From a virus (lineage: Duplodnaviria > Heunggongvirae > Uroviricota > Caudoviricetes): a stretch of 23,582 nucleotides of DNA. This document shows positions 1,999-22,367 of this stretch, piece after piece. Location of the stretch: IMG/VR virus record IMGVR_UViG_2925908680_000008. The stretch is one strand, 5' to 3'. Positions within the stretch are counted from its first letter, which is position 1, and every line of letters starts with the position of its first letter. Made by a program: the position numbers and the translations under genes. The notes beneath the pieces are model-generated. The model ran no database searches. It was not told the DNA's origin and saw nothing but the letters and a program-made list of their open reading frames with translations.

Positions 1999-2037
1999 TT
2001 TTACCACCTCTCTTTTTTCACCAAAAAATCACGACCA

Positions 2038-2375: not shown

Positions 2376-2379
2376 ACTG

Positions 2380-2407: not shown

Positions 2408-2412
2408 CTCCG

Positions 2413-2700
2413 TCACTGACTGCAATTTTTCGATCCAGGGTATTTCCTGAATGCCTTACCATTGGGCTGATGTAATCCCATCCCGGCATGTGCCCGGCTG
2501 ATGGTTTCGCGCATTTCCCCGAAATTATCCTGCCTTGCTGGTGGGCGTGCTGCCTTGCGGATACATTCCGCGCGACGTTTTGCCGCCTGTTCCCGTGCCT
2601 TGTCATCATTCGCCAGCATGATGACCTCAGCCCACCGCGCCGCCGCTCTCCGGTACAGACCACGCGCTTCCAGTGCTTCCGCTTTGCTGTCGTGAATCAT
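2413..2700 (-). CDS. PerC-family transcriptional regulator (PerC homolog, Pch-like)
   Basis: 95 aa; motif KAEALEARGLYRRAAARWAEV matches my recollection of the PerC family signature; start ATG overlaps upstream stop as ATGA. Confidence 0.65.
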   Translation of the reverse strand: MIHDSKAEALEARGLYRRAAARWAEVIMLANDDKAREQAAKRRAECIRKAARPPARQDNFGEMRETISRAHAGMGLHQPNGKAFRKYPGSKNCSQ

Positions 2701-3227
2701 GCGCCTGTTTTCTCCTTTGCTGCCCGGCGCTGACGTTTGCGCTTCTCATTCAGCGCCACCAGCCGCGTTTCTGCGTCCTGTTGTTCCTGTGGTGTCACCT
2801 CGCCGCACGGCTGGCCTTTCAGGTCGTAGCGTACCCCACCAGCCATTAAGGCGCGGTAATAGCGCGGACACTGCGCATAAGATGCCAGCGTCGCACGCAA
2901 TGCCCCTGGACCGAATGCCAGCCCCCTGACGGCGAGATCCTGCATCAGGTCGTCGAATATCCCCACCTTAAGCGGCTTCGGTGCTTCCCGGCTGAATAAT
3001 TCAGGCCACAACTCAGTGAGGCGGTTAACGCGCCTGCGGTTTTTGCGCTGGCGTTTGGTCATATGCCGCCACGGTGTCGCCCCTGTGGGCTTCTGCTGCG
3101 CTTTCTGGTTACCGGGCATCACTTTATGCGCCGATGTGGTTTTATCCTGCTCCTGCGCCGCCTGCGTCGTTTTCTGCGGCGTGCCGTAAATGCCTTTCGG
3201 TTTTCTGTTAATGGTCAGCTTAGTCAT
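2697..3227 (-). CDS. ProQ/FinO-domain RNA-binding protein with basic N-terminal extension
   Basis: PLKVGIFDDL ... LRATLASYAQCPRYYRALMAGGVRYDLKGQPCGEVTPQE closely parallels the ProQ N-terminal FinO-like domain; start taken at ATG 3227 (GGAG RBS), alternative ATG at 3239. Confidence 0.8.
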   Translation of the reverse strand: MTKLTINRKPKGIYGTPQKTTQAAQEQDKTTSAHKVMPGNQKAQQKPTGATPWRHMTKRQRKNRRRVNRLTELWPELFSREAPKPLKVGIFDDLMQDLAVRGLAFGPGALRATLASYAQCPRYYRALMAGGVRYDLKGQPCGEVTPQEQQDAETRLVALNEKRKRQRRAAKEKTGA

Positions 3228-3239
3228 GCTTTGCTCCAT

Positions 3240-3611
3240 CGTTACAACTGTCTACCAACTGTCCACCGATATAATTTATTGATTTATTTGATATTATTTA
3301 CACATAACTAAAAAATAACCTATCAATTGTCTACCAACTGTCTACCGCATTAATACATTGATAATTAATGATTTTTTCAAAATGGTAGACAGAGTAGACA
3401 GTTAAAAGAGAAATTTTAAAAATGAACCCTTAACTATCTGTTTTTTTATATACCCCCCGTGGTTTAGGAATATAGAAACAACTGTCCACTCTCTACCACA
3501 TTTAAAAATATCTATACAATTCAATGCATTAATTGGTAGATGGTTGGTAGAGGATTAAGTATTACTGTCTACCAACCGTCTACCTTTACGTTTCAGCTCA
3601 TAAATTTCGTA
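3240..3611. repeat. iteron-type replication origin with AT-rich unwinding region
   Basis: At least 10 copies of CAACTGTCTACC-like motif in both orientations (e.g. 3245-3267, 3323-3346, 3384-3403, 3479-3497, 3533-3553, 3563-3584) interspersed with AT-rich tracts, directly 3' of the replication gene. Confidence 0.7.
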
Positions 3612-5417
3612 TTATGTTCTGTCGTTAATCCCTGTTGCTGCTGGCAACCAGCTATCAGCATCATCATCTAACAGAACATTTGTTATCACTCGCCCTTTAT
3701 CCTGGCCTTTAGTGCATTTAGCCCGCTTATACTCCTTTCCGTATTCCGCCATAGCACCAGGCATATCAGTGCCAAAGCGTTTCAGTGATACTGGTTTTCC
3801 CAGACCATGCGCTGACATATAGGCTAAATAAGCATGATACAGATATCGCCTCGGGCTAAATGGCACTATTCCCGCATTGCCCACCATCATTCCTTCACAT
3901 TTAACCAACGACATCAGATAGCCGCAAAAGTCCACCAGTGAATCACCCTCACGTTTTATCATCAGAGCCTCTTCTGATTTCTGCTGCTCATATAACAGAC
4001 GTCTGGCTTCATCCTGGTCAGAAAAACGAGTAAGCAGGTGGCGAATAACTACCGCCAGTTCGCCTTCTATTTTTTCCACCAGCATGGGATCGCGTTCGTT
4101 CTCCGGTACGACCTCAGAGAAATTAAATATCACCCTACGACGCGAGATCCCCCCGCTTCGGTCACTGAATGACATGGCGTTATTGTTTACTGCCAGCACT
4201 ACCGCCGGAATACGAGTGGAGTATGGGGCTTTATGTTTCGGGTCGATCGCCACCTTGTCACCACCAGTAATTGCCTTAATTCCTGCACCATCTCCAGCGT
4301 AGCGGGCCATATCCGGCATGATAATCAGCGAAAAGCCAACGACTAACGCGCGTTCCCTTGCGTCTTCCAGCGCCTTCATGCTTGCCGATACTGTATTGAC
4401 CTTACCCGCCAGCATGGTACAAATCTCCGCCATCACACTTTTACCGCTTCCGCCCGGCCCCGTTACCTCAAGGAATAACTGCCAGTCGTACCGGTTCGCC
4501 AGTACCATGAATAATGCCGCCAGTACGCGATCTGCTTTACGATCGTTATTTGCCACCGAACGACGCAGCCACTTCCAGAAATTCGGCGCATGTGTTGCCA
4601 GCGTTTCCCCCTCTGCTGGTGGGCTGAACGGTAATTCACTGGCATTTAACAACCAGTCATTTTTGTTATGCTCCCGAAAATTTCCTGTCCGGGTATCAAA
4701 TACCCCGTTACTGAATCCAATAAGATTCCTGTCTGCCCCGCCCATAACAGGCAGGCTCAATTTCATTGTGTCTACGGCAAATTTAATGGCGTTTTGCGAA
4801 TAACTGATTCCAGCATCAATAAAAATCTTCGCCATAGATCGCTGGAGTTCCTTATCAGATACAGGCTCCCAGACAATTCCGTTGTAATGGTGAACTACAT
4901 CAGAATCGTCATTTATAGCCAGTGCCCTTCCATAATATTCAAGCAATACTTCCCCTCTCTGGCTGGCTCCCATCTGATTTAGTGCTGGCCTGGGTAGGTC
5001 ACTATTTTTTGTGACTAATTTCATCGCTGAAACTTCCCCGCGCTCTGCCTGTTCGCGGATCCGTTGCAGGTAATCGCGCCAGTTCTCCGGCTCCCGGTCG
5101 GTGATGCCTTTGTATAATTTCGCCTCCTGTACGCCAGCCAGTGCCAGTTTTTCAGCGATAGTATTGATCTGGATTGGCTCTATCTCCCCCGCGAGATAGA
5201 CACGCGCAAAGCGGCGTTCATCGTCGACAATGCGGATATTCGCCAGGTCTGCCAGTTGCTTTGGCCCCAGATAAACAGGTGGCACGTTATCGCCGTGTTT
5301 TCGTCCTTCGCTTTCAATCCAGTGTTGAGCATGGGAGTAAGCGTCCGTCCCGGCAAAAATGATTACCTCAGTGAATTTATCCTTCGGCTGATATTTCAAA
5401 TTCGGTGCGTTTTTCAC
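3612..5417 (-). CDS. replication initiation primase/helicase-like protein (P4-family primase C-terminal-type P-loop NTPase)
   Basis: 601 aa; Walker A GPGGSGKS; GTG start at 5417 with GGGAGGT RBS, overlapping upstream stop (GTGA); adjacent iteron origin. Confidence 0.75.
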   Translation of the reverse strand: MKNAPNLKYQPKDKFTEVIIFAGTDAYSHAQHWIESEGRKHGDNVPPVYLGPKQLADLANIRIVDDERRFARVYLAGEIEPIQINTIAEKLALAGVQEAKLYKGITDREPENWRDYLQRIREQAERGEVSAMKLVTKNSDLPRPALNQMGASQRGEVLLEYYGRALAINDDSDVVHHYNGIVWEPVSDKELQRSMAKIFIDAGISYSQNAIKFAVDTMKLSLPVMGGADRNLIGFSNGVFDTRTGNFREHNKNDWLLNASELPFSPPAEGETLATHAPNFWKWLRRSVANNDRKADRVLAALFMVLANRYDWQLFLEVTGPGGSGKSVMAEICTMLAGKVNTVSASMKALEDARERALVVGFSLIIMPDMARYAGDGAGIKAITGGDKVAIDPKHKAPYSTRIPAVVLAVNNNAMSFSDRSGGISRRRVIFNFSEVVPENERDPMLVEKIEGELAVVIRHLLTRFSDQDEARRLLYEQQKSEEALMIKREGDSLVDFCGYLMSLVKCEGMMVGNAGIVPFSPRRYLYHAYLAYMSAHGLGKPVSLKRFGTDMPGAMAEYGKEYKRAKCTKGQDKGRVITNVLLDDDADSWLPAATGINDRT

Positions 5418-5704
5418 TTCTTACCTCCCGCAACCAACATTGCTCGGATTTTTTTAATATTCGTGGCTGCACGTCTCGCCACCGCCTGTTGTTTGTTTTC
5501 CATCAGAATAAAATCACGATCAAACTGACGGCGCGGCATTACGCAGTCATATTCGTAAGCCTCACGGCGGTAGGTGATATTGCCTGGCGTAACGTGACGA
5601 ATAACCACTCGTCCCCCGCGTCTGGTGTCGCGGTAAATATCGCCGTGTCTGATTTCAGGCCGAGCGGGGCCGCTGGCAGTAAAGCCAGAATTTTTCTGTT
5701 TCAT
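5414..5704 (-). CDS. hypothetical basic protein (96 aa), coupled to replication gene
   Basis: ATG at 5704 with AGGAAAA RBS; stop overlaps start of downstream gene. Confidence 0.5.
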   Translation of the reverse strand: MKQKNSGFTASGPARPEIRHGDIYRDTRRGGRVVIRHVTPGNITYRREAYEYDCVMPRRQFDRDFILMENKQQAVARRAATNIKKIRAMLVAGGKK

Positions 5705-5708
5705 GGTT

Positions 5709-5909
5709 TTATTTTCCTGTCAGCAGTTCCGGTTTTATTTCCGCACGAATACAGAGTTCAGAAAAAAATTCAGGAGAACCAACAATCTCATTACTTTTCA
5801 GTCGGCATTGTGATTTCACTTTTCCTTTATCCAGGTAAACCAGTATGCGTCCGGTGAAATCATCTGGCGCACTCAGGGTAATTGTCATTGTTGCTTGCTG
5901 ATTATCCAT
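5709..5909 (-). CDS. hypothetical protein (66 aa)
   Basis: ATG overlaps upstream stop (ATGGATAA); tight operon arrangement. Confidence 0.45.
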   Translation of the reverse strand: MDNQQATMTITLSAPDDFTGRILVYLDKGKVKSQCRLKSNEIVGSPEFFSELCIRAEIKPELLTGK

Positions 5910-6267
5910 AATTCACCCCCTGAATAACCTGATAACCGCAACTGGTCAGCAATTCGATAAATTCCGGCAGTGTTCCGAAACAGCAATCATCTCGCAGCCG
6001 TTCTCGGGATACTTCAACGCCGTTTTCGTAGTGACTCACCATGCGTCCGGTAAAATGCAAATCATCATCGTGATGGCACGTTGACGGTTTAATCAGTCGC
6101 GCACGCTCTGCCAGTTCCAGCAATGCTTCAACACTTCCGGCAATTGCACCATCCGGCAGGTGGTAATTACGCACTATGCGCCCGTTCTCCACATGGACCA
6201 GTAGCTGCCCGGTAAATATCTCGTCAAACTGAATGCTGTTAAGGTCAGAAATTGACAGGTTATGCAT
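5902..6267 (-). CDS. hypothetical protein (121 aa)
   Basis: ATG at 6267 overlaps upstream stop (ATGCATAA). Confidence 0.5.
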   Translation of the reverse strand: MHNLSISDLNSIQFDEIFTGQLLVHVENGRIVRNYHLPDGAIAGSVEALLELAERARLIKPSTCHHDDDLHFTGRMVSHYENGVEVSRERLRDDCCFGTLPEFIELLTSCGYQVIQGVNYG

Positions 6268-6625
6268 GGTGCACCTCCTGGCGAATACGGGCAGCGAATA
6301 CCATCACGCAGCCATCAGGAGATTGCTGGCGTGCTTCCTGTTCGCTGGTGGCCTCGATGTGAATTACACGCGGTTGTGCCGTACTCAGGGCGATAAAACG
6401 CCAGATAAAATTGTTCTCGCATTTCTGAATAAACAGCGTGTTTTCTTCGCGCCCTTTCCATGTTGCCGAGATATAGCCCATGTCATTGAGCATCTCGCAG
6501 GCATCAACCAGCGTATCGGCGGCTACGTGTACAGTGTTTTTACCGTCAGCTATGCAATCACGGTGCACCGCCAGGAAGGTGTATATAAATTTAGGGTGAG
6601 TTTGGGTATGCTGTGTTCCAGCCAT
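6260..6625 (-). CDS. hypothetical protein (121 aa), first gene of replication operon
   Basis: ATG at 6625 (MAGTQHT...) with GAGGT RBS; E. coli-like codon usage, unlike the antisense read-through upstream. Confidence 0.5.
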   Translation of the reverse strand: MAGTQHTQTHPKFIYTFLAVHRDCIADGKNTVHVAADTLVDACEMLNDMGYISATWKGREENTLFIQKCENNFIWRFIALSTAQPRVIHIEATSEQEARQQSPDGCVMVFAARIRQEVHHA

Positions 6626-6812
6626 AATCGTTACCTCGTTTAACGGTTTGGTTAGACGCCCCGCTACTGCCGCAAACAGTTCGGGGCGTTGTCGTTTACA
6701 TCCTCTTACTGAGGTGTGATTTAAATTAAATTCAACTGAATCACAGGTCAAGTATTTTTTGTGATTCTTTTTTGTGTATACTGAATCACATCTTTTGTTT
6801 AGGAGAATGCAC
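6626..6812. promoter_or_regulatory. divergent promoter/operator region between replication operon and small regulator gene
   Basis: CTGAATCACA direct repeats at 6737-6746 and 6781-6790 with inverted TGTGATTC between; TATACT -10-like hexamer at 6777-6782; AGGAGA RBS at 6801-6806; 8-bp stem hairpin around 6650-6690. Confidence 0.5.
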
Positions 6813-7118
6813 ATGGCAAAAAACACTATCAACGACAAATCAAAACAGATTTCAATTCGTATCCCACATGATGCTTTTGATGGCATGGAATCCGTAAAAC
6901 TGGACGGCGAAAGCAACGCCGGATTCATAGTAACCGCCATGCGCGGTGAGATCGCCCGCCGCCAGGCAGAAGGAAGAGGAGAAAACCCCCTGGTTTCTTC
7001 GCTCGATGCACTGGCGCAGGTGGAAAAAATCGGTGTCAAAGCTGCCGAGGAGATCGGGCAACTCGTCACCGTCGCGCGTGAAGAACTCCAGCGACGCAAG
7101 GTCAAAGAGCAGGAATAG
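6813..7118 (+). CDS. putative ribbon-helix-helix DNA-binding regulator (candidate island repressor)
   Basis: 101 aa from ATG 6813 with AGGAGA RBS; ISIRIPHDAFDGMESVKL...NAGFIVTAMRGEIARR has a strand-helix-helix pattern; family assignment is by eye only. Confidence 0.45.
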   Translation: MAKNTINDKSKQISIRIPHDAFDGMESVKLDGESNAGFIVTAMRGEIARRQAEGRGENPLVSSLDALAQVEKIGVKAAEEIGQLVTVAREELQRRKVKEQE

Positions 7119-7175
7119 CCACTATCAGCGCCATAGTTTGAGGAACGCAGGCGCATTGCTTTACAGGACAGCACC

Positions 7176-7355
7176 ATGAGCGACACAGAATCAACCAAAA
7201 CACCATCACCAACTCGTAAGAGACGACGCAAAAATATAGCGCATGAACATGAATCAGAAAGATTCGCACCTTGTTCGTTTGCTCTTGAGAAATTCCTTAA
7301 AGAGCACAGGAAAAAGCTCTCGTTGCAAACCTTGGAACGAACCAAATCTGACTGA
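7176..7355 (+). CDS. small basic hypothetical protein (59 aa)
   Basis: ATG 7176, stop TGA 7353-7355; below ORF-track cutoff; RKRRRK basic patch. Confidence 0.3.
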   Translation: MSDTESTKTPSPTRKRRRKNIAHEHESERFAPCSFALEKFLKEHRKKLSLQTLERTKSD

Positions 7356-7756
7356 TCACATTGCCCACCAGCCGCAAATGTGGCATTGTTGGTGATGCGT
7401 TCAAGTTTGATTTGCCGTAATACCCACTGGCGACCCTCTGCGGTCGCCTTTGTTTTATCCAGAACGAAATCAGACATCAGATTGATCAGCACCTGGCGAC
7501 CTGACAAAATCGTATCGGTCGCGCCACCAGCAAAATTTTTTGCTTTCCGGACGATGTGGCCAACGGTATTTTGCAGCAAAATATTCTGCATTTCTGGCGT
7601 GCTGTGGCGACGGTGATCAGCGCCTTCACATTGAACGAACTTGTCGCTAAAATTCACCCACATAGCAAACATCGCGGTGCTGTAGGTAATTCGTTCACAA
7701 AGGCGCTCCGGCAACGGGGCGCTTTCTCTTTTTGTAACGGTCAGAGCGTTACACAT
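7355..7756 (-). CDS. hypothetical protein coupled to ant; 3' end undefined (no in-frame stop)
   Basis: ATG 7756 overlaps ant stop (ATGTGTAA) with GGAGGAAAA RBS; good codon usage for ~134 codons, then frame continues stop-free to 6260. Confidence 0.4.
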
Positions 7757-8549
7757 GGCTGTTTTCCTCCATGCGACGGGCTAACCAACGCTGCGAAAGA
7801 CGAATTAATTCAGCTTTCCGCTGGTGGTAGTCCTGGCCTAACTCAATCAGCGTGATATTGCTCCGCTCAAGGTAAGAAAGGTGCTCAAGCTGCAACGTGC
7901 TCATGTGGTCGCGTGGTTCACCTGTGATGCCGTTCGCCTGCGCCCACTGTTTTGCAGTCATGCCACCCAGCACGATACGCGCCAGCATATTGGCTTCCGT
8001 GGTGTAGTGGTGCTGTAGAGTGTTTTTACCCAGTTCAGTCCGGTACGCCTCCAGCGCGGCGCACATCGGCTTAAAGTAGCTGGCAACGGTGATACGGGCT
8101 TTCAGTTCCCTGCGTAACGCTGCGGAACGCACTGGCGCTACCTTGTGTAGCTCCTCCTCGCATTTGATGAAGTACTGACGAACGGCACGGCCCTGTTCGG
8201 TGCGTTCGACCATCGCCAGTTCTTTTGCCATGTTCACGGTGATGATGTACTCAAGAGCGGTTTGCTGGCGAGATTTTGCGCTCACCGGATCGGGTCGGCT
8301 CAAATATTCAACAACTTCATAATCCACGCCTTCCGTGAAGCCGTATTCTTCAATGCGCCCCTTGATCCACGAACGGAAAACGCGCCCTACACCTAACGCC
8401 TTATGCAACGCTCTGGCGCTAACAATATTGGTTTCACGCCCGCCAATAACGCCGGAAATAACCGGGATAATTTCGCCAAAATTTTGCAGATTCTGGTTTT
8501 CAGGCCGAACGAAGCCCTGCCCCTGTACGGGCGTTTTTCGCAGTTTCAT
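7749..8549 (-). CDS. phage antirepressor-like protein (AntA/Rha-like domain)
   Basis: 266 aa; TNIVSARALHKALGVGRVFRSWIKGRIEEYGFTEGVDYEV resembles the AntA/Rha antirepressor domain; AGGAG RBS. Confidence 0.6.
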   Translation of the reverse strand: MKLRKTPVQGQGFVRPENQNLQNFGEIIPVISGVIGGRETNIVSARALHKALGVGRVFRSWIKGRIEEYGFTEGVDYEVVEYLSRPDPVSAKSRQQTALEYIITVNMAKELAMVERTEQGRAVRQYFIKCEEELHKVAPVRSAALRRELKARITVASYFKPMCAALEAYRTELGKNTLQHHYTTEANMLARIVLGGMTAKQWAQANGITGEPRDHMSTLQLEHLSYLERSNITLIELGQDYHQRKAELIRLSQRWLARRMEENSHV

Positions 8550-8627
8550 AAAAACTCCTGCTATCGAATTAAGTTACTTTTATTTGCTGGTGGATAGCTG
8601 GGGGCTTCTGGCCCCGTAGCCATTTAA

Positions 8628-8825
8628 TCAGGTAGCTGTTCCGCGTGATTCAGCAATACGCTGATTAATCCACTCGTCAATTTCACTCTCAACGAAAGCA
8701 ATAGCTCGCGAGCCAATTTTAACTGATGCAGGAAATTTACCTTGCCCCATAAGGCGATAAATCCATGCCTTGCTATATCCAGTTCTACGCTGAACTTCTG
8801 TTAAACGAATAAGCGTATTTGACAT
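8628..8825 (-). CDS. alpA: AlpA-family (Phage_AlpA/Vis-like) transcriptional regulator/excisionase-type HTH protein
   Basis: 65 aa; IRLTEVQRRTGYSKAWIYRLMGQGKFP...ESEIDEWINQR aligns with the AlpA pattern. Confidence 0.85.
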   Translation of the reverse strand: MSNTLIRLTEVQRRTGYSKAWIYRLMGQGKFPASVKIGSRAIAFVESEIDEWINQRIAESRGTAT

Positions 8826-8893
8826 ATATTTACCTCATAACGTCTACTCAATTTGACGAGGTAATCCTGGCACAGAAATAACGAATATTTTCA

Positions 8894-9070
8894 TACCCTC
8901 AGGCCTAATGGTTACCGGAAGGAAATTAACCCTAAGGGTGATGGTAATCGGAAGGAAATTAACCCTAAGGGTGATGGTAATCGGGAGGAAATCTACCCTA
9001 AGGGTGATGGTAAAATTGACGGGGAAGATAAAAAAATACCCTCAGGGTAACAGTAAATCACCCTCAGGGT
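8894..9070. promoter_or_regulatory. operator-like repeat array upstream of alpA: three tandem 33-bp repeats plus two extra palindromic sites
   Basis: 33-bp units at 8908-8940, 8941-8973, 8974-9006; motif ACCCT-N-AGGGT at 8929-8939, 8962-8972, 8995-9005, 9038-9048, 9060-9070. Confidence 0.55.
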
Positions 9071-9085
9071 ATGCGGTATGGTGCG

Positions 9086-9883
9086 TTAATCCGGCTTTGC
9101 GTTCTTTTGGCTGTTGTCTCGGTTAATAGGGCAGGCAGTCCTCTCTATGAGCGTTGCAAGTGCATTACTTGCCCCCCACTGCTTAAGCTCCCTGGTTATC
9201 GCTTCTTGATTTCCCCTGGTGGCAAAATCATTTTCTGGATCGTAATTGGCCCACTCTCTGTTTCTAATCTCAATAGCCTTAGCTAATGGGTCTTTATCCC
9301 AGTATTTATATAAGTGTATCGGGCGCTCTTGCTCTAACTGCTCTATCCTTGCCCTTAACTCTGCGTTTTCTTTTTCCAGCATTGCGATTTGGGATAATAA
9401 ATCATCCTCTGTACGCAACTCTTTCTTTTCAATATCGCGTCCTTGTGCCTCGTCATTTTCAGAAGAGTTAGCGCCTTCCAGCTTCGTTAACGCGTCAAGG
9501 ACATCGGGAAAAATTGCGAAAATTTCACCCCTTATAAATCCAATGTTCTCAAATTCGGGATCTTCCCAATAACCGGACACCAGAAAACCATTTTCATCCC
9601 TCTCACCAGGTAAACAACCACGTTTCCGAACCGCATTCAGATTTCTATAAAGAACATCATAATCAAATTCATCCCGATACGGGTTACAAAAAGATTCCAA
9701 CAGCTTAAATTCATTTACTGTGTACAGGCGGATATGTTCTCCGCTTATTCTCCTGAGTATCCAAGTTATGACATCTGAAACATCATAATCATCACCAGCG
9801 ACCTTAAGCACGACCTCAAGAAATTCACGTAAAGAAATAAAATCTTTTTTGTATTCGTTTAATTCGGCATGAATATCAATCAT
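9086..9883 (-). CDS. uncharacterised cargo protein (265 aa) with central coiled-coil segment
   Basis: ATG 9883 with GAGGTG RBS (ORF track start at 9889 is GTG); appears AT-richer than neighbours by eye; LEKENAELRARIEQLEQER heptad-like stretch; no recognised catalytic motif. Confidence 0.55.
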   Translation of the reverse strand: MIDIHAELNEYKKDFISLREFLEVVLKVAGDDYDVSDVITWILRRISGEHIRLYTVNEFKLLESFCNPYRDEFDYDVLYRNLNAVRKRGCLPGERDENGFLVSGYWEDPEFENIGFIRGEIFAIFPDVLDALTKLEGANSSENDEAQGRDIEKKELRTEDDLLSQIAMLEKENAELRARIEQLEQERPIHLYKYWDKDPLAKAIEIRNREWANYDPENDFATRGNQEAITRELKQWGASNALATLIERTACPINRDNSQKNAKPD

Positions 9884-10011
9884 ACGCACACCTCAGCGTC
9901 CTCTACTGTAGTGGCTGTACCAGTCCGTCGAGGTGTACGGATTTTCGGGAGCGACCCTAGACACAGCCTTTTCTTTCGTCGCTCAAAGTCTACTACTGTA
10001 TACGCAACCAG

Positions 10012-11226
10012 TCATCCACATTTTCCGAACTTGCCATGCACCACGTTACCGCCATGCTCGAGCGAATCCATATAGTCGGCATACCACTGGAGCATCTCCC
10101 GGCGACCATCCAGATATTGCGCATGGTTGTATGTGCCACGAATTGAGTTTTTATCGACGTGTGCGAGCTGCGTCTCTATCCACGCGGTGTTATAGCCCTG
10201 CTCATGCAAAATGGTGCTCATGGTGTGCCGGAATCCATGACCAGTAACGCGCCCGGCATAGCCGATACGACGAATGAGCACATTCATCGCCATTTCACTC
10301 ATTGGCTTACTGTGGTGAATACGACCGGGGAAAATAAACTGATACTGGCCTGTCATGTTTTTTAACTGCTCCAGTATTTTTATTGCCTGTTCTGGTAATG
10401 GCACGCAATGCGGACGGCGCATCTTCATTCGTTCTTTAGGCACTTCCCACAAACGATTATCAAAATCGATCTCCTGCCATTCTGCCTGCCGTAATTCCCC
10501 GGGTCTGACACCTGTCAGAATTAATAGCCGCATTGCCAGTTTGACGATCTGGCTTCCGGTGTACGTATTAAAAACGCGGAAAAATTCCGGCAGTTCGTCG
10601 GCCTTCAAATAGGCGTAATGCTCTTTTTTATGTGGAGCAAATGCGCTCACCAGATCAGGGGCTGGATTATATTCGGCGCGTCCGGTGATGATTGCGTACC
10701 GGAACACCTCGCCGCATCGCTGGCGAACCTTACGCAATTTTTCAGTCGCACCACGGTCATTAAGACGGGAAAGAACCGCCAGCAATTCCATCGGCTTAAT
10801 TTCTGCGATCGGCCTACCGCCAATGTACGGAAAAACATCTTTTTCAAACGTCTCGATCATTTCCTCGGCGTATGACGATGACCACCTGTCGATCCGCTTT
10901 TCGTACCATTCGCGAGCAATACCCTCAAAAGTATTGCCAAATTTGCTCGCCTGTTCTCGCTTTTGGGCTTTTCTGGCCTCACTTGGATTTATACCACCAG
11001 CAAGAAGCCTTTTAGCCTCATCCCTTGCCGCCCTGGCATCAGACAGGGACACATCAGGGTACACACCCAACGACAACATTTTGGGCTTTCCTGCAAACCT
11101 GTAGCGCAGTCGCCACCCTTTCGAACCGTTCGGCTCAATGAGCAACGAAAGCCCGTTACCGTCATTGAGTGTATAAGCCTTTTCTTTCGGCTTCGCGCGC
11201 CTGATGGCAAGGTCTGAAAGCAGCAT
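10012..11226 (-). CDS. int: P4-type tyrosine integrase (site-specific recombinase)
   Basis: 404 aa from ATG 11226 with GGAG RBS; N-terminal LSDLAIRRAKPKEKAYTLNDGNGLSLLI... typical of P4-family integrases; C-terminal HGFRHT and Y-containing catalytic region. Confidence 0.9.
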   Translation of the reverse strand: MLLSDLAIRRAKPKEKAYTLNDGNGLSLLIEPNGSKGWRLRYRFAGKPKMLSLGVYPDVSLSDARAARDEAKRLLAGGINPSEARKAQKREQASKFGNTFEGIAREWYEKRIDRWSSSYAEEMIETFEKDVFPYIGGRPIAEIKPMELLAVLSRLNDRGATEKLRKVRQRCGEVFRYAIITGRAEYNPAPDLVSAFAPHKKEHYAYLKADELPEFFRVFNTYTGSQIVKLAMRLLILTGVRPGELRQAEWQEIDFDNRLWEVPKERMKMRRPHCVPLPEQAIKILEQLKNMTGQYQFIFPGRIHHSKPMSEMAMNVLIRRIGYAGRVTGHGFRHTMSTILHEQGYNTAWIETQLAHVDKNSIRGTYNHAQYLDGRREMLQWYADYMDSLEHGGNVVHGKFGKCG

Positions 11227-11873
11227 GTGTATAGCTCCAAAAAATAAATTTTGTCCTATACGCATTACTATACACTTCTGTGTGTAGATTCTGGTAGTTG
11301 TGAGTAGACGTTAATGAACTATGAAAATGGCTGGAAGACTTGATATTCGTGGGTTTGATGGACTTTAGTAGACGTTGAGAAATGTTTGTTTGGAGCGGGC
11401 GAAGGGAACAATACAACAAGCCACAAGACCAGTAGTAAAGGCACATTCGCGAGTTCTAAAATAGATTCTATACACATTTCTATACACATTTATCACTCGC
11501 TTGGGAATTACACATCCCCTGTTATCCGTGATCAAGCTGGTGGATGATCACGGATAACCGATATGGGAATCCCCATATCGGCATCGCGTAGTTAATCGTA
11601 GTGGCTACCGTAGTAGTTGAGTAGCAGGATGTAACCTGCCAGGAAGGAAATGATCGGTCGTAACTCGCCACCACCAGCCACAGAACGCAAATTTGCGTCG
11701 TCGGATATATCAACAACTTAGCACAAAAATAAGTCAGGCAGATACAAACCTCAAATTTGAGGTTTGCTTGTTTATCAACGGGTAAGGATAATCATCTCCC
11801 CTTTAAAGTCCCTTCGAAGGGTTACCCGTAGGCTTAATGTAAGGCTTGGCTGTAGCCTTACCGAACGCTCCGC
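11227..11873. other. int-upstream / att-proximal region with direct repeats and perfect palindromes (att core not identified)
   Basis: CTATAC(A/G)C repeats at 11266-11290 and 11466-11492; AGTAGACGTT twice; 14-bp-arm inverted repeat 11521-11558; 10-bp-arm palindrome 11558-11581; 22-bp perfect palindrome 11745-11766. Confidence 0.4.
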
Positions 11874-12053
11874 TCACCGTCGCGGCCTGTCCGGTTTCTT
11901 CCACTGATACGGCCTCACATCATCCTGCTGGTGGCGTTCCTGTTGCAGCACAACGGAAACAGGCGCTGAACACCTGTTAATTTTGCTTGCAGGTTGTTTG
12001 ATTCCGGCAATGCTGCGGATCATCTCCAGCATATCGGCTTCGGTGATGGTCAT
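11874..12053 (-). CDS. small hypothetical protein (59 aa) in junction
   Basis: Hand-translated: ATG 12053 with AAGGTG RBS, stop TGA 11874-11876; MTITEADMLEMIRSIAGIKQ...; not in ORF track (under 60 aa). Confidence 0.35.
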   Translation of the reverse strand: MTITEADMLEMIRSIAGIKQPASKINRCSAPVSVVLQQERHQQDDVRPYQWKKPDRPRR

Positions 12054-12079
12054 GATTTACACCTTAGGAAATCTTAGGG

Positions 12080-12345
12080 GCTGGTTGACACTTTCCGGCT
12101 TAAGACCTTAACAAATCTTAACATCGCAGGTTGACACACTTGACACTTTTTCGCGAAAAACCTTATCAAACCTTAGCATTTCTAAGCATGGCAACTTGAC
12201 ACTTTTCGCGATTTTTTCGGCTTTTTGACGTGGTAAATCTGGCGCAAAGCCAGTAACGGCGGGGTTTACAGCGAGGTTGACACTTTTTCGCGTTCAGAGT
12301 GTAAAGTGTCAACCCGGCAGACGGCCTGACTTGACACTTTTCGCG
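12080..12345. repeat. array of TTGACAC(TTTTCGCG) repeats between small junction ORF and TerS-like gene 3' end
   Basis: TTGACAC at 12085, 12131, 12140, 12196, 12277, 12331 plus inverted GTGTCAA at 12306; four copies share TTGACACTTTT(T)CGCG. Confidence 0.6.
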
Positions 12346-12358
12346 AATTTTACGGTCA

Positions 12359-12883
12359 TTAATGGGATGATTTTTCCCACTCAGCCAGGGCGTTTAGTCC
12401 GGCTTCACTCCAGTTATCCAGCTCATCGGGACAATCACCTGCAACATAGCAGAGCTCACAACGCAGCATACGAATTGCCAGCCTGGCATTTTCCCGAAAA
12501 TCATACTGCTCAAAGTAATATTGCCCAGCATAATCCTCAAGGCAGATAGCACCATCATCAAGAAATTGCACTTCACAGCATAGTTCCCCGGCTGCATCCT
12601 GCACACGCTGCTGTATGTCATCGTCCGTTACTGGTGCAGGGATTTTACCGTCTCTGGCCTTAACTGCTTTCCAGAACTCGCCCCACGTCATTTCCAGCGT
12701 TCTCTCTGGCCACATTTCAGAAACGGTATCTTTTCCCTGTGCTGGTGGGCTGTTCCGCTGCTCTGTCGCTTCCACATCGATTTTTTTACCGGACATGACC
12801 ACTTCGCCTTTCTCGATCCAGTCGTAAACTGTCTGGCGGCTTACGCCTTTGTGTTTGGCATATTCTGCCTTGCTCATAAACAT
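12359..12883 (-). CDS. TerS-like HTH protein (copy 2)
   Basis: Identical 174-aa translation to 1-525. Confidence 0.45.
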   Translation of the reverse strand: MFMSKAEYAKHKGVSRQTVYDWIEKGEVVMSGKKIDVEATEQRNSPPAQGKDTVSEMWPERTLEMTWGEFWKAVKARDGKIPAPVTDDDIQQRVQDAAGELCCEVQFLDDGAICLEDYAGQYYFEQYDFRENARLAIRMLRCELCYVAGDCPDELDNWSEAGLNALAEWEKSSH

Positions 12884-13053
12884 GACACTTCCCCTCAGAC
12901 TGTATTAATGCGCCGGAAAGCGCGTGTATTTAAATCATCCCAGGAACCGTTGAGCACCAATTAGTTGCGCGAAGTAATCGGCACCAGCGTTCCGAACAAT
13001 TTCCAACTTAACGTTCTGATCATTGTTTCCTGCTGCAGGGACAATCCCACGAT

Positions 13054-13706
13054 TCATAGCCAGCGCCCGGATATTTCTTCCAGTTTTTCCAGAGCTGGCT
13101 TGCAGGCCGCATCAATAACTTCACGGACCATTCCGGCGAGCTGTTCTTCTTCTGTCGGCGTTGTTACTTCCACACCTGATGGTTTCCCGCCCTTATCCCA
13201 TACGCCCAACGGTACGAGCGCAACGTGATCGATAAGAAATGGCGTACCCTCAATGAAAAATTGTCCTCGCCCATTACATCAGGAACTTCTGCCCCACCGG
13301 ACGCACCACAAAACACAACCGACGGGCTGGTGGATACCTCCCCCCGTGCTTTCTGGATGTAATCGATGATTTCCTGCCCGTAAATCCGGCATACGCCCCA
13401 CACCTCGTCACCGCGAATATACGGCAACATGACGGTGCCAATAATGCGCGACCGTTCGCCCACGTCTTCAAGGGTTTTGCTTTCGGGATGGTCGATAATG
13501 ACGGGTACTCCGGCGCAACGTTCCAGGAACTGCGGATTGAGATAAGTTTGCGGTGAACGCCAGACAAATTCTTTTTCTTCGGCGCGATAGGCCATTCCGG
13601 TTCCTGTGATACGCAGGTTAATCAGCCACATGTTGGAAAACTGATAAGGCGACGGTAGCTGACCGTCCCGAATCTGCTTTGCCGCCTCAATTTCTGTTAA
13701 AAGCAT
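13054..13706 (-). pseudogene. frameshifted copy of the 217-aa hypothetical gene (A5 instead of A6 at 13256-13260)
   Basis: ORF track gives 180 aa (13164-13706) with divergent C-terminus after MGEDNF; copy 1 has A6 at 898-903. Confidence 0.5.
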
Positions 13707-13770
13707 AATGTCCCCCGGTTATAAGCAATAAGCCCCACCAAATCCGGCAGGGCTGAAATCAGCACGTTTT

Positions 13771-14355
13771 TCATGCCCCCGCGAGGCTTGCAACGTTAAT
13801 TTTAACCAGGCGACGGGGAGGGATTTTGAAAGCACTAAGCCAGTTATTCGGATCCCCCTGATATTCAGTAATCCGCCGTCCGGCTTCATCCATTCTTACG
13901 GTTTTACGCAAATAGCCCGGCGTATTTTCCACAGCCCACTGAACACTGTCTTTTGCAGCCTGGTAAATCTGATCTTCCAGCACCGCCAGCGTTGCAGAAT
14001 CTGAAACGGAACGAATATCCACATCACTGAATTTTTTAGCCAGCTTCTGTGCACCAATTAATGCACGCTTGCGGTAATCCATCGACTTTTCACCAGCAAA
14101 CGGGGCTGGAGCGCGACGGCCCATATTGCTGTATGCGGAATCCGCTTTAGCCTGGGCTTCTGCCAGTGAGGATTCATCTTCGACTGACGCGACGATGTTT
14201 TTATTCGCGTCATCCTCGTCCGCTTTTGTGAAATCCTGTGCGGGGATCGCATTCAGAATTTCGATAATCTCCTGCGGAGTGCTGCCCTGCGACTCTGACA
14301 GAGCGTTAACCACCTCCATCAGTTTTAATCGCAAATCTTCTTTGCTTGCTGGCAT
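13771..14355 (-). CDS. hypothetical acidic protein (194 aa), copy 2
   Basis: Identical to 1414-1998; upstream A-run difference is outside the CDS. Confidence 0.5.
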   Translation of the reverse strand: MPASKEDLRLKLMEVVNALSESQGSTPQEIIEILNAIPAQDFTKADEDDANKNIVASVEDESSLAEAQAKADSAYSNMGRRAPAPFAGEKSMDYRKRALIGAQKLAKKFSDVDIRSVSDSATLAVLEDQIYQAAKDSVQWAVENTPGYLRKTVRMDEAGRRITEYQGDPNNWLSAFKIPPRRLVKINVASLAGA

Positions 14356-14393
14356 TTTTACCACCTCTCTTTTTTCACCAAAAATCACGACCA

Positions 14394-14573
14394 TCAGGCC
14401 GGACGTTCTACGGGATAAAGCGCCCGCTGCATTAAACGCCGGGCGACCTCATGAATGCTCGGAGCAATCCCCAGCGGAGAATTGCGGCGTTCCTCGTCCT
14501 GGATGCGCTGTAATGCTTCAATCTGATCACGAGCGAGTAAAACGGGTTTCACGCTGGCTTTTCTCATAGTCAT
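14394..14573 (-). CDS. small hypothetical protein (59 aa), copy 2
   Basis: Duplicate of 2038-2217. Confidence 0.4.
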   Translation of the reverse strand: MTMRKASVKPVLLARDQIEALQRIQDEERRNSPLGIAPSIHEVARRLMQRALYPVERPA

Positions 14574-14735
14574 ATCTCCTGAACAAAACAATGATTATGA
14601 TTGCACAAACTGAAATAACGATCTACATCATTGCAATTTATGAAACAATAACGCATGATGATCGCGTTCTTCCCATTGACTTCAATCACCTGAAAAACAA
14701 AGCCCGCAACACTTCTGGCTGCGGGTTTTTTACTG

Positions 14736-14763
14736 GCACAAAAAAGCCGGGAAAAATCCCGGC
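14736..14763 (-). terminator. intrinsic terminator after PerC-family gene, copy 2
   Basis: Duplicate of 2380-2407. Confidence 0.6.
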
Positions 14764-14768
14764 CTCCG

Positions 14769-15056
14769 TCACTGACTGCAATTTTTCGATCCAGGGTATT
14801 TCCTGAATGCCTTACCATTGGGCTGATGTAATCCCATCCCGGCATGTGCCCGGCTGATGGTTTCGCGCATTTCCCCGAAATTATCCTGCCTTGCTGGTGG
14901 GCGTGCTGCCTTGCGGATACATTCCGCGCGACGTTTTGCCGCCTGTTCCCGTGCCTTGTCATCATTCGCCAGCATGATGACCTCAGCCCACCGCGCCGCC
15001 GCTCTCCGGTACAGACCACGCGCTTCCAGTGCTTCCGCTTTGCTGTCGTGAATCAT
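14769..15056 (-). CDS. PerC-family transcriptional regulator, copy 2
   Basis: Duplicate of 2413-2700. Confidence 0.65.
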   Translation of the reverse strand: MIHDSKAEALEARGLYRRAAARWAEVIMLANDDKAREQAAKRRAECIRKAARPPARQDNFGEMRETISRAHAGMGLHQPNGKAFRKYPGSKNCSQ

Positions 15057-15583
15057 GCGCCTGTTTTCTCCTTTGCTGCCCGGCGCTGACGTTTGCGCTT
15101 CTCATTCAGCGCCACCAGCCGCGTTTCTGCGTCCTGTTGTTCCTGTGGTGTCACCTCGCCGCACGGCTGGCCTTTCAGGTCGTAGCGTACCCCACCAGCC
15201 ATTAAGGCGCGGTAATAGCGCGGACACTGCGCATAAGATGCCAGCGTCGCACGCAATGCCCCTGGACCGAATGCCAGCCCCCTGACGGCGAGATCCTGCA
15301 TCAGGTCGTCGAATATCCCCACCTTAAGCGGCTTCGGTGCTTCCCGGCTGAATAATTCAGGCCACAACTCAGTGAGGCGGTTAACGCGCCTGCGGTTTTT
15401 GCGCTGGCGTTTGGTCATATGCCGCCACGGTGTCGCCCCTGTGGGCTTCTGCTGCGCTTTCTGGTTACCGGGCATCACTTTATGCGCCGATGTGGTTTTA
15501 TCCTGCTCCTGCGCCGCCTGCGTCGTTTTCTGCGGCGTGCCGTAAATGCCTTTCGGTTTTCTGTTAATGGTCAGCTTAGTCAT
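15053..15583 (-). CDS. ProQ/FinO-domain RNA-binding protein, copy 2
   Basis: Duplicate of 2697-3227. Confidence 0.8.
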   Translation of the reverse strand: MTKLTINRKPKGIYGTPQKTTQAAQEQDKTTSAHKVMPGNQKAQQKPTGATPWRHMTKRQRKNRRRVNRLTELWPELFSREAPKPLKVGIFDDLMQDLAVRGLAFGPGALRATLASYAQCPRYYRALMAGGVRYDLKGQPCGEVTPQEQQDAETRLVALNEKRKRQRRAAKEKTGA

Positions 15584-15595
15584 GCTTTGCTCCAT

Positions 15596-21249: not shown

Positions 21250-21426
21250 TACCCTCAGGCCTAATGGTTACCGGAAGGAAATTAACCCTAAGGGTGATGG
21301 TAATCGGAAGGAAATTAACCCTAAGGGTGATGGTAATCGGGAGGAAATCTACCCTAAGGGTGATGGTAAAATTGACGGGGAAGATAAAAAAATACCCTCA
21401 GGGTAACAGTAAATCACCCTCAGGGT
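21250..21426. promoter_or_regulatory. palindromic 33-bp repeat array upstream of alpA, copy 2
   Basis: Duplicate of 8894-9070. Confidence 0.55.
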
Positions 21427-21441
21427 ATGCGGTATGGTGCG

Positions 21442-22239
21442 TTAATCCGGCTTTGCGTTCTTTTGGCTGTTGTCTCGGTTAATAGGGCAGGCAGTCCTCT
21501 CTATGAGCGTTGCAAGTGCATTACTTGCCCCCCACTGCTTAAGCTCCCTGGTTATCGCTTCTTGATTTCCCCTGGTGGCAAAATCATTTTCTGGATCGTA
21601 ATTGGCCCACTCTCTGTTTCTAATCTCAATAGCCTTAGCTAATGGGTCTTTATCCCAGTATTTATATAAGTGTATCGGGCGCTCTTGCTCTAACTGCTCT
21701 ATCCTTGCCCTTAACTCTGCGTTTTCTTTTTCCAGCATTGCGATTTGGGATAATAAATCATCCTCTGTACGCAACTCTTTCTTTTCAATATCGCGTCCTT
21801 GTGCCTCGTCATTTTCAGAAGAGTTAGCGCCTTCCAGCTTCGTTAACGCGTCAAGGACATCGGGAAAAATTGCGAAAATTTCACCCCTTATAAATCCAAT
21901 GTTCTCAAATTCGGGATCTTCCCAATAACCGGACACCAGAAAACCATTTTCATCCCTCTCACCAGGTAAACAACCACGTTTCCGAACCGCATTCAGATTT
22001 CTATAAAGAACATCATAATCAAATTCATCCCGATACGGGTTACAAAAAGATTCCAACAGCTTAAATTCATTTACTGTGTACAGGCGGATATGTTCTCCGC
22101 TTATTCTCCTGAGTATCCAAGTTATGACATCTGAAACATCATAATCATCACCAGCGACCTTAAGCACGACCTCAAGAAATTCACGTAAAGAAATAAAATC
22201 TTTTTTGTATTCGTTTAATTCGGCATGAATATCAATCAT
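21442..22239 (-). CDS. uncharacterised cargo protein (265 aa), copy 2
   Basis: Duplicate of 9086-9883. Confidence 0.55.
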   Translation of the reverse strand: MIDIHAELNEYKKDFISLREFLEVVLKVAGDDYDVSDVITWILRRISGEHIRLYTVNEFKLLESFCNPYRDEFDYDVLYRNLNAVRKRGCLPGERDENGFLVSGYWEDPEFENIGFIRGEIFAIFPDVLDALTKLEGANSSENDEAQGRDIEKKELRTEDDLLSQIAMLEKENAELRARIEQLEQERPIHLYKYWDKDPLAKAIEIRNREWANYDPENDFATRGNQEAITRELKQWGASNALATLIERTACPINRDNSQKNAKPD

Positions 22240-22367
22240 ACGCACACCTCAGCGTCCTCTACTGTAGTGGCTGTACCAGTCCGTCGAGGTGTACGGATTT
22301 TCGGGAGCGACCCTAGACACAGCCTTTTCTTTCGTCGCTCAAAGTCTACTACTGTATACGCAACCAG

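What the first reader, a model, noticed from the sequence alone, without database searches (positions are those of the whole stretch)
8894..9070. Three tandem 33-bp repeats carrying a palindromic ACCCT-N-AGGGT site upstream of alpA
Units at 8908-8940, 8941-8973 and 8974-9006 each contain ACCCTAAGGGT; two further ACCCTCAGGGT sites follow at 9038-9048 and 9060-9070, and a half-site-like TACCCTCAGG lies at 8894-8903. Five phased palindromes (33-bp spacing, about three helical turns) immediately 5' of alpA suggest cooperative binding of a dimeric regulator to an operator array controlling the island activation switch. The binding protein is unknown.
Basis: seen in the sequence. Interest (0 to 1): 0.5.

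Follow-up and report, generated by a model that had tools for sequence, protein, structure and literature searches.

The report
Operator-like palindrome array gating satellite alpA
The repeats are real, conserved protein-binding-type sites in front of the master activator gene of an E. coli phage satellite. Comparative evidence suggests they are read by an uncharacterised protein encoded just upstream, not by AlpA, which gives a testable candidate for how such satellites are kept silent until a helper phage arrives.

Summary
There are 3.2 tandem 33-bp units at 8908-9013. Five exact ACCCTNAGGGT palindromes occur per island copy, against 0.31 expected in the whole window, plus one imperfect site at 8895-8905. 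All lie between orf267 (9086-9889, minus strand) and alpA (8628-8825, minus strand) of a 12.36-kb PICI-type satellite. The window holds about 1.9 head-to-tail copies of this island.

Across divergent islands the flanks diverge, but the arms stay invariant and the central base is free. Site positions relative to the alpA ATG are kept. Spacings are almost always 2, 3, 4 or 5 helical turns. The 33-bp unit varies from 1 to 3 copies among E. coli strains.

The array does not follow the AlpA allele: islands with identical AlpA lack it. It follows the C-terminal domain of the gene just upstream (40/40 type A; 0/12 type B; 0/27 other). That protein family has swapped N-terminal domains, a coiled coil and a conserved C-domain. 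Relatives with diverged C-domains carry different repeat arrays.

Best reading: this is an operator array for that protein, gating alpA. The two distal sites also form an intrinsic terminator. Binding, the direction of regulation and the alpA transcription start are all untested.

The parts
8908..9013 (.). Tandem array of 3.2 units of 33 bp. Each unit carries one ACCCTAAGGGT palindrome. Copy number is 1-3 among E. coli strains.
   Evidence: TRF; intergenic lengths of 194, 227 and 260 bp.
8929..8939 (.). Palindromic site ACCCTAAGGGT. Its centre is -109 from the alpA ATG, a position conserved in divergent islands.
8962..8972 (.). Palindromic site ACCCTAAGGGT, centre -142. It was added by duplication of the 33-bp unit.
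8995..9005 (.). Palindromic site ACCCTAAGGGT, centre -175.
9038..9048 (.). Palindromic site ACCCTCAGGGT, centre -218. It also forms the 3' arm of the terminator hairpin on the minus-strand RNA.
9060..9070 (.). Palindromic site ACCCTCAGGGT, centre -240, 16 bp after the orf267 stop codon. It also forms the 5' arm of the terminator hairpin.
8895..8905 (.). Promoter-proximal imperfect site ACCCTCAGGCC (2 mismatches), centre -75. It is part of the element CCATTAGGCCTGAGGG (8896-8911, minus-strand reading). It abuts TATGAA (8890-8895, minus strand), a candidate -10 hexamer.
   Evidence: The promoter assignment is an inference; the consensus scan found no sigma-70 promoter.
9030..9072 (-). Predicted intrinsic terminator of the int-orf267 transcript. 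The two distal palindromes pair with each other (dG -23.9 kcal/mol) and are followed by U7 (9036-9030).
   Evidence: The U-tract is also present in L160 but not in more divergent islands.
9086..9889 (-). orf267 (RefSeq WP_000565286.1, 'hypothetical protein'), the candidate binder. It has an N-terminal domain (aa 5-140), a coiled coil (about aa 161-188) and a conserved C-terminal domain (about aa 189-257, ending ...IERTACPINR).
   Evidence: No Pfam, NCBIfam, PADLOC or PDB match.
8628..8825 (-). alpA, the 65-aa master activator of Gram-negative PICIs and the gene downstream of the array.
   Evidence: PMC6092414.
8826..8865 (-). alpA leader and ribosome-binding region. It is conserved among islands regardless of which cassette lies upstream.
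21250..21428 (.). Second copy of the whole array in the concatemer, with sites at 21285, 21318, 21351, 21394 and 21416.
21442..22245 (-). Second copy of orf267.

Best explanation
The window is an excised or concatemeric E. coli PICI-type phage satellite with the gene order int - orf267 - [array] - alpA - antA ... primase. The ACCCTNAGGGT sites form an operator array. It has a weak promoter-proximal site and 3-5 perfect sites, spaced 2-4 helical turns apart on one face of the DNA. The array is most likely bound cooperatively by dimers of the protein encoded immediately upstream. That protein (orf267) has a variable N-terminal domain, a coiled coil and a conserved C-terminal domain. Bound protein would control whether RNA polymerase reaches or starts at alpA, the island's master activator. 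I favour a negative role: occlusion of a weak promoter whose candidate -10 (TATGAA) abuts the proximal site, and/or a roadblock reinforcing the terminator formed by the two distal sites. This would keep alpA off in the quiescent island. The swapped N-terminal domains would be the input that a helper phage acts on. Status of each step: SHOWN - the sites are non-random, under selection, phased, and tied to the C-domain type of the upstream gene. INFERRED - orf267 binds them; the sign of regulation; helper sensing through the N-domain. Duplication of the 33-bp unit (1, 2 or 3 copies among strains) adds in-phase sites and would tune occupancy. Rough sub-confidences: functional protein-binding sites about 0.8; orf267-family protein is the binder about 0.55; negative regulation of alpA about 0.4.
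For: (1) Non-random: 5 exact sites per island copy against 0.31 expected in the window. (2) Selection on the sites: in 32 distinct intergenic regions from E. coli, other enterics and a Symbiopectobacterium MAG, the flanks cannot be aligned, yet positions -4..-1 and +1..+4 carry 1.8-2.0 bits and the central base 0.13 bits. An unbiased dyad search finds CCCT-N1-AGGG in at least 2 copies in 26/28 distinct type-A regions. (3) Architecture: site centres lie at about -75, -108, -151, -174 and -206 from the alpA ATG in divergent islands. Nearly all spacings fall at 21-24, 31-34, 42-44 or 55 bp, which are 2, 3, 4 or 5 turns. (4) Not AlpA: L183-187 have 97%-identical AlpA with the same HTH and no sites. 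L224 (no sites) has the same AlpA as L225/L226 (sites), and L232/L235 (no sites) the same as L237 (sites). (5) Tracks the upstream gene: all 40 array-positive loci have an orf267 homologue and none of 40 array-negative loci does. By C-domain type the counts are A 40/40, B 0/12 and other 0/27. (6) Natural domain swaps: N-domains are shuffled between type A and type B (L211 against L189/L220/L226), and the DNA element follows the C-domain. Type B regions instead carry AATGGTGG/CCACC elements: 7/9 regions, against 0/28 type A and 0/26 other. (7) Remote homologues again sit directly upstream of alpA and carry other repeats: ACCCT-N8-AGGGT (P0063), TAACCCGACAGG x4 (P0072) and CCCCGATAT (P0045). (8) L255 has a type-A-like C-terminus followed by TACCCTCAGGGTA twice, 34 bp apart, with no alpA downstream. 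(9) The coiled coil, with leucine-zipper-like PDB matches, fits a dimer reading a palindrome. (10) No other ACCCTNAGGGT occurs anywhere in the island. (11) Published work shows that alpA promoters are helper-inducible and AlpA-autoactivated, and that no repressor is known for Gram-negative PICIs (PMC6092414, PMC11773190).
Confidence: 0.5

Rival explanations
1. The palindromes are AlpA's own binding sites and mediate the known positive autoregulation of alpA (or excisionase-type binding).
For: AlpA activates its own promoter in EcCICFT073 and EcCIMP1. The sites lie upstream of alpA. AlpA is 100% identical in all closely related array-bearing E. coli islands.
Against: Islands with the same or 97%-identical AlpA have no such site within 330 bp upstream: L183-187, L224, L232 and L235. 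AlpA variants of only 71-79% identity do have the sites. Excisionase-family wHTH proteins are known to bind direct repeats as monomers (general knowledge), not 5-N-5 palindromes. The array is about 2.3 kb from the attP junction.
Confidence: 0.07
2. The sites are bound by a helper-phage or host protein that switches alpA on. This would resemble P2 Cox binding phased cox-boxes at the P4 P_LL promoter. orf267 would then be an unrelated accessory gene that is merely linked to the sites.
For: Helper phages induce alpA transcription through an unidentified factor. Phased multi-site arrays upstream of a weak promoter suit an activator. The slot between int and alpA is known to hold accessory genes.
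Against: Two IMG/VR scans for paired sites found the PICI cassette almost exclusively. The few other hits were unrelated contigs, and no recognisable coliphage was among them. This reading would need each upstream gene type to be linked by chance to its own repeat type, including after N-domain swaps and in remote homologues. L255 keeps the gene-plus-sites pair without alpA.
Confidence: 0.15
3. The elements act only at the RNA level, as terminators or alternative hairpins (attenuation) in the int-orf267 read-through transcript, with no protein reading the DNA sequence.
For: The intergenic RNA folds better than shuffled controls (z = -4.0). The two distal sites pair into a -23.9 kcal/mol hairpin followed by U7, and all sites are mutually complementary. 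No terminator lies between int and orf267.
Against: The arms are invariant in sequence, not merely complementary. There are no compensatory or wobble substitutions in 114 sites. The central bases of paired sites are often non-complementary, for example G/G in this window. The U-tract is missing in most divergent islands. A single site is an unstable hairpin (-3.5 kcal/mol). Helical phasing of the DNA is not explained. There is no Rfam match.
Confidence: 0.12
4. The array is a replication origin (iterons) or a packaging (pac/cosB-like) site of the satellite.
For: The array consists of tandem direct repeats carrying phased binding sites. The window is a concatemer, the replicating or packaging substrate.
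Against: A better origin candidate lies directly 3' of the primase gene, with iteron-like repeats flanking an AT-rich stretch at 3245-3346. This is where PICI origins are reported. No lambda-type cosN is present. A TerS-like HTH ORF lies at the other end of the island. The array's position is fixed relative to the alpA start in many islands whose primases and late genes differ.
Confidence: 0.04

Closest known systems
Stl master repressor and its operators in SaPIs (Gram-positive PICIs)
   Same: Both are satellite-encoded regulators placed next to int. Both gate the switch that starts the satellite cycle. Both are highly variable and modular among islands, which fits sensing of different helper proteins. 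Both would act through multiple operator sites.
   Different: Stl is divergently transcribed and has an N-terminal HTH (general knowledge; PMC6092414). Here the gene runs in the same direction as alpA, and the conserved putative DNA-binding part is C-terminal with no recognisable fold. The sites lie 3' of the regulator gene. The controlled gene is an activator (alpA). Repression and inducer binding have not been shown.
Known alpA promoter regulation in Gram-negative PICIs (EcCICFT073, EcCIMP1)
   Same: The island type and the position of alpA are the same. In those islands the promoter region is helper-inducible and AlpA-autoactivated.
   Different: No operator, repressor or inducer has been defined in those papers. 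EcCICFT073 appears to lack a gene between int and alpA. The gene in that slot in EcCIMP1 (EcCIMP1_002) was treated as an accessory gene of unknown function.
P2 Cox / cox-box array at the P4 P_LL promoter (from memory; not tested here)
   Same: Both have multiple phased binding sites upstream of a satellite promoter that triggers the satellite's lytic programme.
   Different: Cox-boxes are direct repeats read by a helper-encoded protein. Here the sites are palindromes that co-vary with an island-encoded protein.
Centromere-like arrays downstream of their binding-protein gene (F sopB-sopC, P1 parB-parS; from memory)
   Same: Both have tandem repeats, each holding a short palindrome, placed immediately 3' of the gene for the protein that binds them.
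   Different: There is no ParA/SopA NTPase here and no ParB fold. The array position is fixed relative to the alpA start.

Membership tests
Gram-negative PICI (AlpA-type phage satellite) | Tyrosine integrase, alpA and primase/replicase genes, co-oriented | tested here: met
   Int at 10012-11265, AlpA at 8628-8825 and a D5-type primase at 3612-5417, all on the minus strand.
Gram-negative PICI (AlpA-type phage satellite) | Size of about 10-15 kb, site-specific integration, no full set of virion genes | tested here: met
   The unit is 12,357 bp. The identical island sits at tRNA-Gly in E. coli cq9. Only DUF2213, TerS-like, PerC and ProQ genes lie in the late region.
Gram-negative PICI (AlpA-type phage satellite) | Induction and packaging by a helper phage | not testable with these tools
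   The only indirect support is the concatemeric form and the presence of an identical segment in IMG/VR (L027).
Transcription-factor operator array | Repeated sequence-specific motif conserved beyond its flanks | tested here: met
Transcription-factor operator array | Sites in helical phase, consistent with cooperative binding | tested here: met
   Spacings are 21-24, 31-34, 42-44 or 55 bp in 32 distinct regions, with only a few outliers.
Transcription-factor operator array | Defined position relative to the promoter or transcription start | tested here: inconclusive
   No sigma-70 consensus promoter was found. A candidate -10 (TATGAW) abuts the proximal site in most but not all type-A islands.
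Transcription-factor operator array | Demonstrated binding by a cognate protein | not testable with these tools
   Only co-variation with the C-domain of the upstream gene is available.
SaPI Stl-type master repressor module | Recognisable HTH DNA-binding domain | tested here: not met
SaPI Stl-type master repressor module | Divergent transcription from the regulated operon | tested here: not met
   orf267 and alpA are on the same strand.
SaPI Stl-type master repressor module | Relief of repression by binding a helper-phage protein | not testable with these tools
   Only the shuffled N-terminal domains are suggestive.
AlpA/Xis recombination-directionality sites at attP | Sites adjacent to the att core that track the RDF allele | tested here: not met
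   The array is about 2.3 kb from the attP junction and is absent from islands with identical AlpA.
Intrinsic (Rho-independent) terminator | Stable GC-rich hairpin followed by a U-tract | tested here: met
   This holds for the distal pair only: -23.9 kcal/mol followed by U7. The U-tract is not conserved in divergent islands.
Iteron-type replication origin | Iterons next to the initiator gene together with an AT-rich unwinding region | tested here: not met
   A separate candidate lies at 3245-3346, next to the primase. The array flanks are not AT-rich unwinding elements.

The most novel reading that the evidence does not exclude
Many Gram-negative PICIs may carry, in the slot between int and alpA, a previously unrecognised family of modular sensor-regulators. 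Each would have an exchangeable N-terminal domain, a coiled coil and a novel C-terminal DNA-binding domain, together with its own operator array. This module would be the missing 'Stl-equivalent' that holds alpA off and couples island induction to specific helper phages. Expansion and contraction of the 33-bp unit would then be a fast way to tune the switch.
Probability: 0.3. Interest if true: 0.8.

Novelty: new variant of a known kind. Interest (0 to 1): 0.6.

Why it matters
How helper phages switch on Gram-negative PICIs is unresolved. AlpA is known to be required and helper-induced, but no repressor, operator or inducer has been defined (PMC6092414, PMC11773190). This locus offers a concrete, cheap-to-test cis element and a named candidate protein, WP_000565286.1. 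It also offers a comparative rule: the repeat type follows the C-domain type of the upstream gene. That rule could be used to annotate the regulatory modules of hundreds of satellites. If the protein binds the sites, its C-domain is a new DNA-binding module. Its shuffled N-domains would then be candidate phage sensors, of interest for satellite-helper specificity and for engineering PICI-based tools.

Tried and rejected
- The genome-contig scan for paired sites was swamped by dispersed repeats in Chloroflexota, Gemmatimonadota and other MAGs.
- The search for homologous proteins with the C-domain alignment returned only short fragments.
- The sigma-70 consensus scan found no promoter in 8500-9400 or 9700-11700. 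I could not place the transcription start by alignment either.
- A regular expression for the type-B element was not specific. It was replaced by k-mer counts.
- P. aeruginosa AlpA antiterminator as an analogue: rejected. It is a larger protein, with contact residues numbered up to 142, and one molecule reads a GGGACG element inside the promoter.
- Lambda-type cos site: none found.
- Literature search for the motif itself found nothing relevant.

Full report
**1. What is in the window**

The window holds about 1.9 head-to-tail copies of a 12,357-bp unit. Positions 1-11226 match 12359-23582 at 99.98% identity with two single-base indels. No tRNA gene is present.

All major genes of the unit are on the minus strand:
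- a tyrosine integrase with an arm-binding domain (10012-11265)
- a 267-aa ORF with no family match (9086-9889, 'orf267')
- alpA (8628-8825, Pfam Phage_AlpA E=2.4e-19)
- an AntA-family gene (7749-8549)
- a DUF4222 gene
- a D5-type primase (3612-5417)
- ProQ/FinO, PerC and DUF2213 genes

The same island, 100% identical across the queried 571-bp segment (8560-9130), is integrated next to tRNA-Gly in E. coli cq9. Gene content and order match the Gram-negative PICI satellites (PMC6092414, PMC10111431). The window is therefore an excised or replicating concatemeric form of such a satellite.

**2. The observation**

Tandem Repeats Finder reports 8908-9013 with period 33, 3.2 copies and 93% matches. 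Exact ACCCTNAGGGT sites lie at 8929, 8962, 8995, 9038 and 9060, and at the same offsets in the second copy. That is 10 matches against 0.31 expected, and none of 100 shuffles reached 10.

An imperfect sixth site, ACCCTCAGGCC, lies at 8895-8905. There is no other match anywhere in the island, even when one mismatch is allowed.

The whole array fills the 260-bp gap between the orf267 stop codon (9086) and the alpA start codon (8825).

**3. Are the sites functional?**

In 5,426 complete E. coli genomes, 165 carry this region. The intergenic length takes values of 194, 227 or 260 bp, corresponding to 1, 2 or 3 copies of the 33-bp unit.

More divergent islands were also examined: L007, L008, L017, L020, the Symbiopectobacterium locus L089, and many IMG/VR loci. 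Their flanks have diverged beyond alignment, but the palindromes are kept. Across 114 sites from 32 distinct intergenic regions, the four inner positions of each arm carry 1.8-2.0 bits and the central base carries 0.13 bits.

An unbiased dyad search recovers CCCT-N1-AGGG in at least two copies in 26 of 28 distinct regions of this type.

Site centres fall at about -75, -108, -151, -174 and -206 from the alpA ATG in divergent islands. Centre-to-centre spacings are almost only 21-24, 31-34, 42-44 or 55 bp. These are 2, 3, 4 or 5 turns of about 10.8-11 bp.

Invariant arms, a free centre, fixed positions and helical phasing are the signature of sequence-specific, cooperative protein binding on one face of the DNA. 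The 33-bp duplications add sites that stay in phase.

**4. Who reads them?**

I collected 80 IMG/VR loci encoding AlpA relatives of 77-100% identity. For each I scored the 330 bp upstream of alpA.

The array does not follow AlpA:
- L183-187 have AlpA differing only at residues 2-4 and carry no site.
- L224 (no sites) has exactly the AlpA of L225 and L226 (sites).
- L232 and L235 (no sites) have exactly the AlpA of L237 (sites).

AntA, YlcI/YnfO and Int identities do not track the array either.

The array coincides perfectly with an orf267 homologue in the slot between int and alpA: 40 of 40 array-positive loci have one, and 0 of 40 array-negative loci do.

Only the C-terminal part of these proteins is conserved. 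It comprises a coiled coil followed by ERPILLxxYRDDDPLxLAIEIRNxEWxNYDxxNDRATRGNQxAIxxELExRGFxxRQAxxIELVACPIKR. The N-terminal domains are exchanged among family members, and the proteins range from 70 to 335 aa.

Typing the slot gene by its C-terminus gives the following counts for at least two ACCCTNAGGGT sites:

| C-domain type of the slot gene | Loci with the array |
|---|---|
| Type A | 40/40 |
| Type B (a distant homologue, ...WSTYD...LRP...GRR) | 0/12 |
| Unrelated families | 0/27 |

Type-B regions instead carry repeated AATGGTGG/CCACC elements. CCACC occurs at least twice in 7/9 distinct type-B regions, against 0/28 type A and 0/26 other.

N-domains are shared across the two types. L211 (type B) has the N-domain of L189, L220 and L226 (type A), so the DNA element follows the C-domain.

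Remote homologues were found by an exhaustive phmmer search. Only 48 cluster representatives among 1.84 billion proteins matched, and the domain was always at the extreme C-terminus. Those whose genomic context could be recovered again sit directly upstream of alpA (one contig ended before the next gene). They carry other repeats: ACCCT-N8-AGGGT, TAACCCGACAGG x4, and CCCCGATAT.

In L255 a protein with a type-A-like C-terminus is followed by two TACCCTCAGGGTA sites 34 bp apart, although no alpA lies downstream.

Together this points to orf267 as the reader of the sites. The coiled coil provides the dimer expected for a palindrome.

Caveats:
- The 3' end of the gene and the array are adjacent, so linkage contributes to the association.
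- Many of the counted loci are close relatives.

**5. How it may work**

No consensus promoter is predicted in the array or between int and orf267, and no terminator separates int from orf267. The two genes are therefore probably co-transcribed.

On that transcript the two distal palindromes pair with each other into a hairpin of -23.9 kcal/mol followed by U7. This is a predicted intrinsic terminator that would insulate alpA from read-through.

The proximal imperfect site abuts TATGAA. This hexamer is TATGAT or TATGAA in most type-A islands and is a candidate -10 element. The last 35 bp or so before the ATG are conserved whatever cassette lies upstream.

I therefore favour a negative role. Cooperative occupancy of the array would occlude a weak promoter and/or block read-through into alpA, and would be relieved when a helper-phage product acts on the variable N-domain.

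This would fit the biology. alpA is autoactivated and helper-induced, its over-expression triggers uncontrolled island replication, and no repressor is known.

The sign of regulation is an inference. If the true promoter lies in the conserved leader, the sites would sit at positions typical of an activator.

EcCICFT073 seems to lack a gene in this slot and is still inducible. The module is therefore an additional or alternative layer of control, not a universal one.

**6. Rivals**

- **AlpA autoregulatory or RDF sites.** Contradicted by islands with identical AlpA that lack the array.
- **A helper or host factor.** Not excluded, but it would require chance linkage of each slot-gene type to its own repeat type. 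Paired sites were found in IMG/VR almost only in this cassette.
- **A purely RNA-level role.** Supported for the distal pair only. Invariant rather than covarying arms, non-complementary central bases, loss of the U-tract in other islands and the DNA phasing all argue against it as the whole explanation.
- **Origin or packaging site.** Unlikely. A better origin candidate lies next to the primase at 3245-3346, and there is no cosN.

**7. Comparison and novelty**

Functionally, the closest known system is the Stl repressor-operator module of Gram-positive SaPIs. It is not a member of that family: no HTH is detected, the orientation is co-directional, and the conserved domain is C-terminal.

Neither the motif nor the protein family appears in the searchable literature. 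Pfam, NCBIfam and PADLOC give no family match, and PHROGs gives only marginal coiled-coil hits.

I rate it a new variant of a known kind: a regulator-operator switch in a phage satellite.

**Verdict**

The binder is probably the unannotated upstream gene rather than AlpA, the RHH-like protein or the integrase. Interest is moderate to high because the hypothesis bears directly on the open question of how Gram-negative PICIs are induced, and it can be tested with simple experiments.

Noticed in passing
window 1-23582 (junction about 11266-12358): The window is a head-to-tail concatemer of about 1.9 copies of a 12,357-bp unit. The copies are 99.98% identical and differ by two single-base indels. 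No tRNA is present. This is the excised or replicating form of the island rather than the integrated form. The attP junction must lie between the int start and about 12358.
   Followed up: partly
window 3245-3346 (and 15601-15702): Iteron-like short repeats (CAACTGTCCAC x2 and CTACCAACTGT x2.5) flank an AT-rich repeat directly 3' of the primase gene. This is a likely origin of replication for the satellite.
   Followed up: no
window 8826-8865; loci L224, L225, L232, L235, L207, L194: A leader of about 35 bp before the alpA ATG (consensus TCGTAAACCGCAATAGACGTTACGAGGTAAATATG) is conserved across islands whose upstream cassettes are unrelated. It is a candidate core promoter, AlpA autoregulatory target or translational element.
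   Followed up: partly
L212, L217, L222 (IMG/VR), just upstream of alpA: A different gene occupies the slot between int and alpA (a 251-aa protein of an unrelated family). It is followed by two perfect ACCGCAATTGCGGT palindromes 23 bp apart. The pattern 'slot gene plus its own palindromes' may therefore extend beyond the orf267 family.
   Followed up: no
L255 5476-6350 (IMGVR_UViG_2919046199_000002): A 258-aa protein with a type-A-like C-terminus (...AVERVACPINRGR) lies in a Cro/CI-like immunity region. It is followed by TACCCTCAGGGTA twice plus two degenerate sites. The downstream gene is a convergent XRE-type gene, not alpA.
   Followed up: partly
L197, L007: In some islands the orf267-type protein is split into two ORFs: an N-domain protein and a protein of about 150 aa holding the coiled coil and C-domain. 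In L203 only a 70-aa C-domain ORF remains. These are either natural two-component versions or decayed genes.
   Followed up: no
window 1-525 (minus strand): The 174-aa ORF has weak N-terminal HTH_17/HTH_23 hits and lies at the late end of the island. It may be a small-terminase-like or redirecting protein.
   Followed up: no
window 9890-10011: The int-orf267 spacer is conserved at the nucleotide level in islands whose orf267 homologues differ. It reads through as 'VSRVAPENPYTSAGWH...' in L160, L166 and L220. It may be a conserved 5' element rather than coding sequence.
   Followed up: no
L040-L159 (genome-contig scan): Pairs of ACCCTNAGGGT 9-13 bp apart are abundant as dispersed repeats in several Chloroflexota, Gemmatimonadota and 'Spyradenecus' MAGs. 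These are unrelated to PICIs.
   Followed up: no
L006 (E. coli 52F4): A decayed island retains int, orf267 and the array but has lost alpA through the primase. The array abuts a truncated helicase gene.
   Followed up: no
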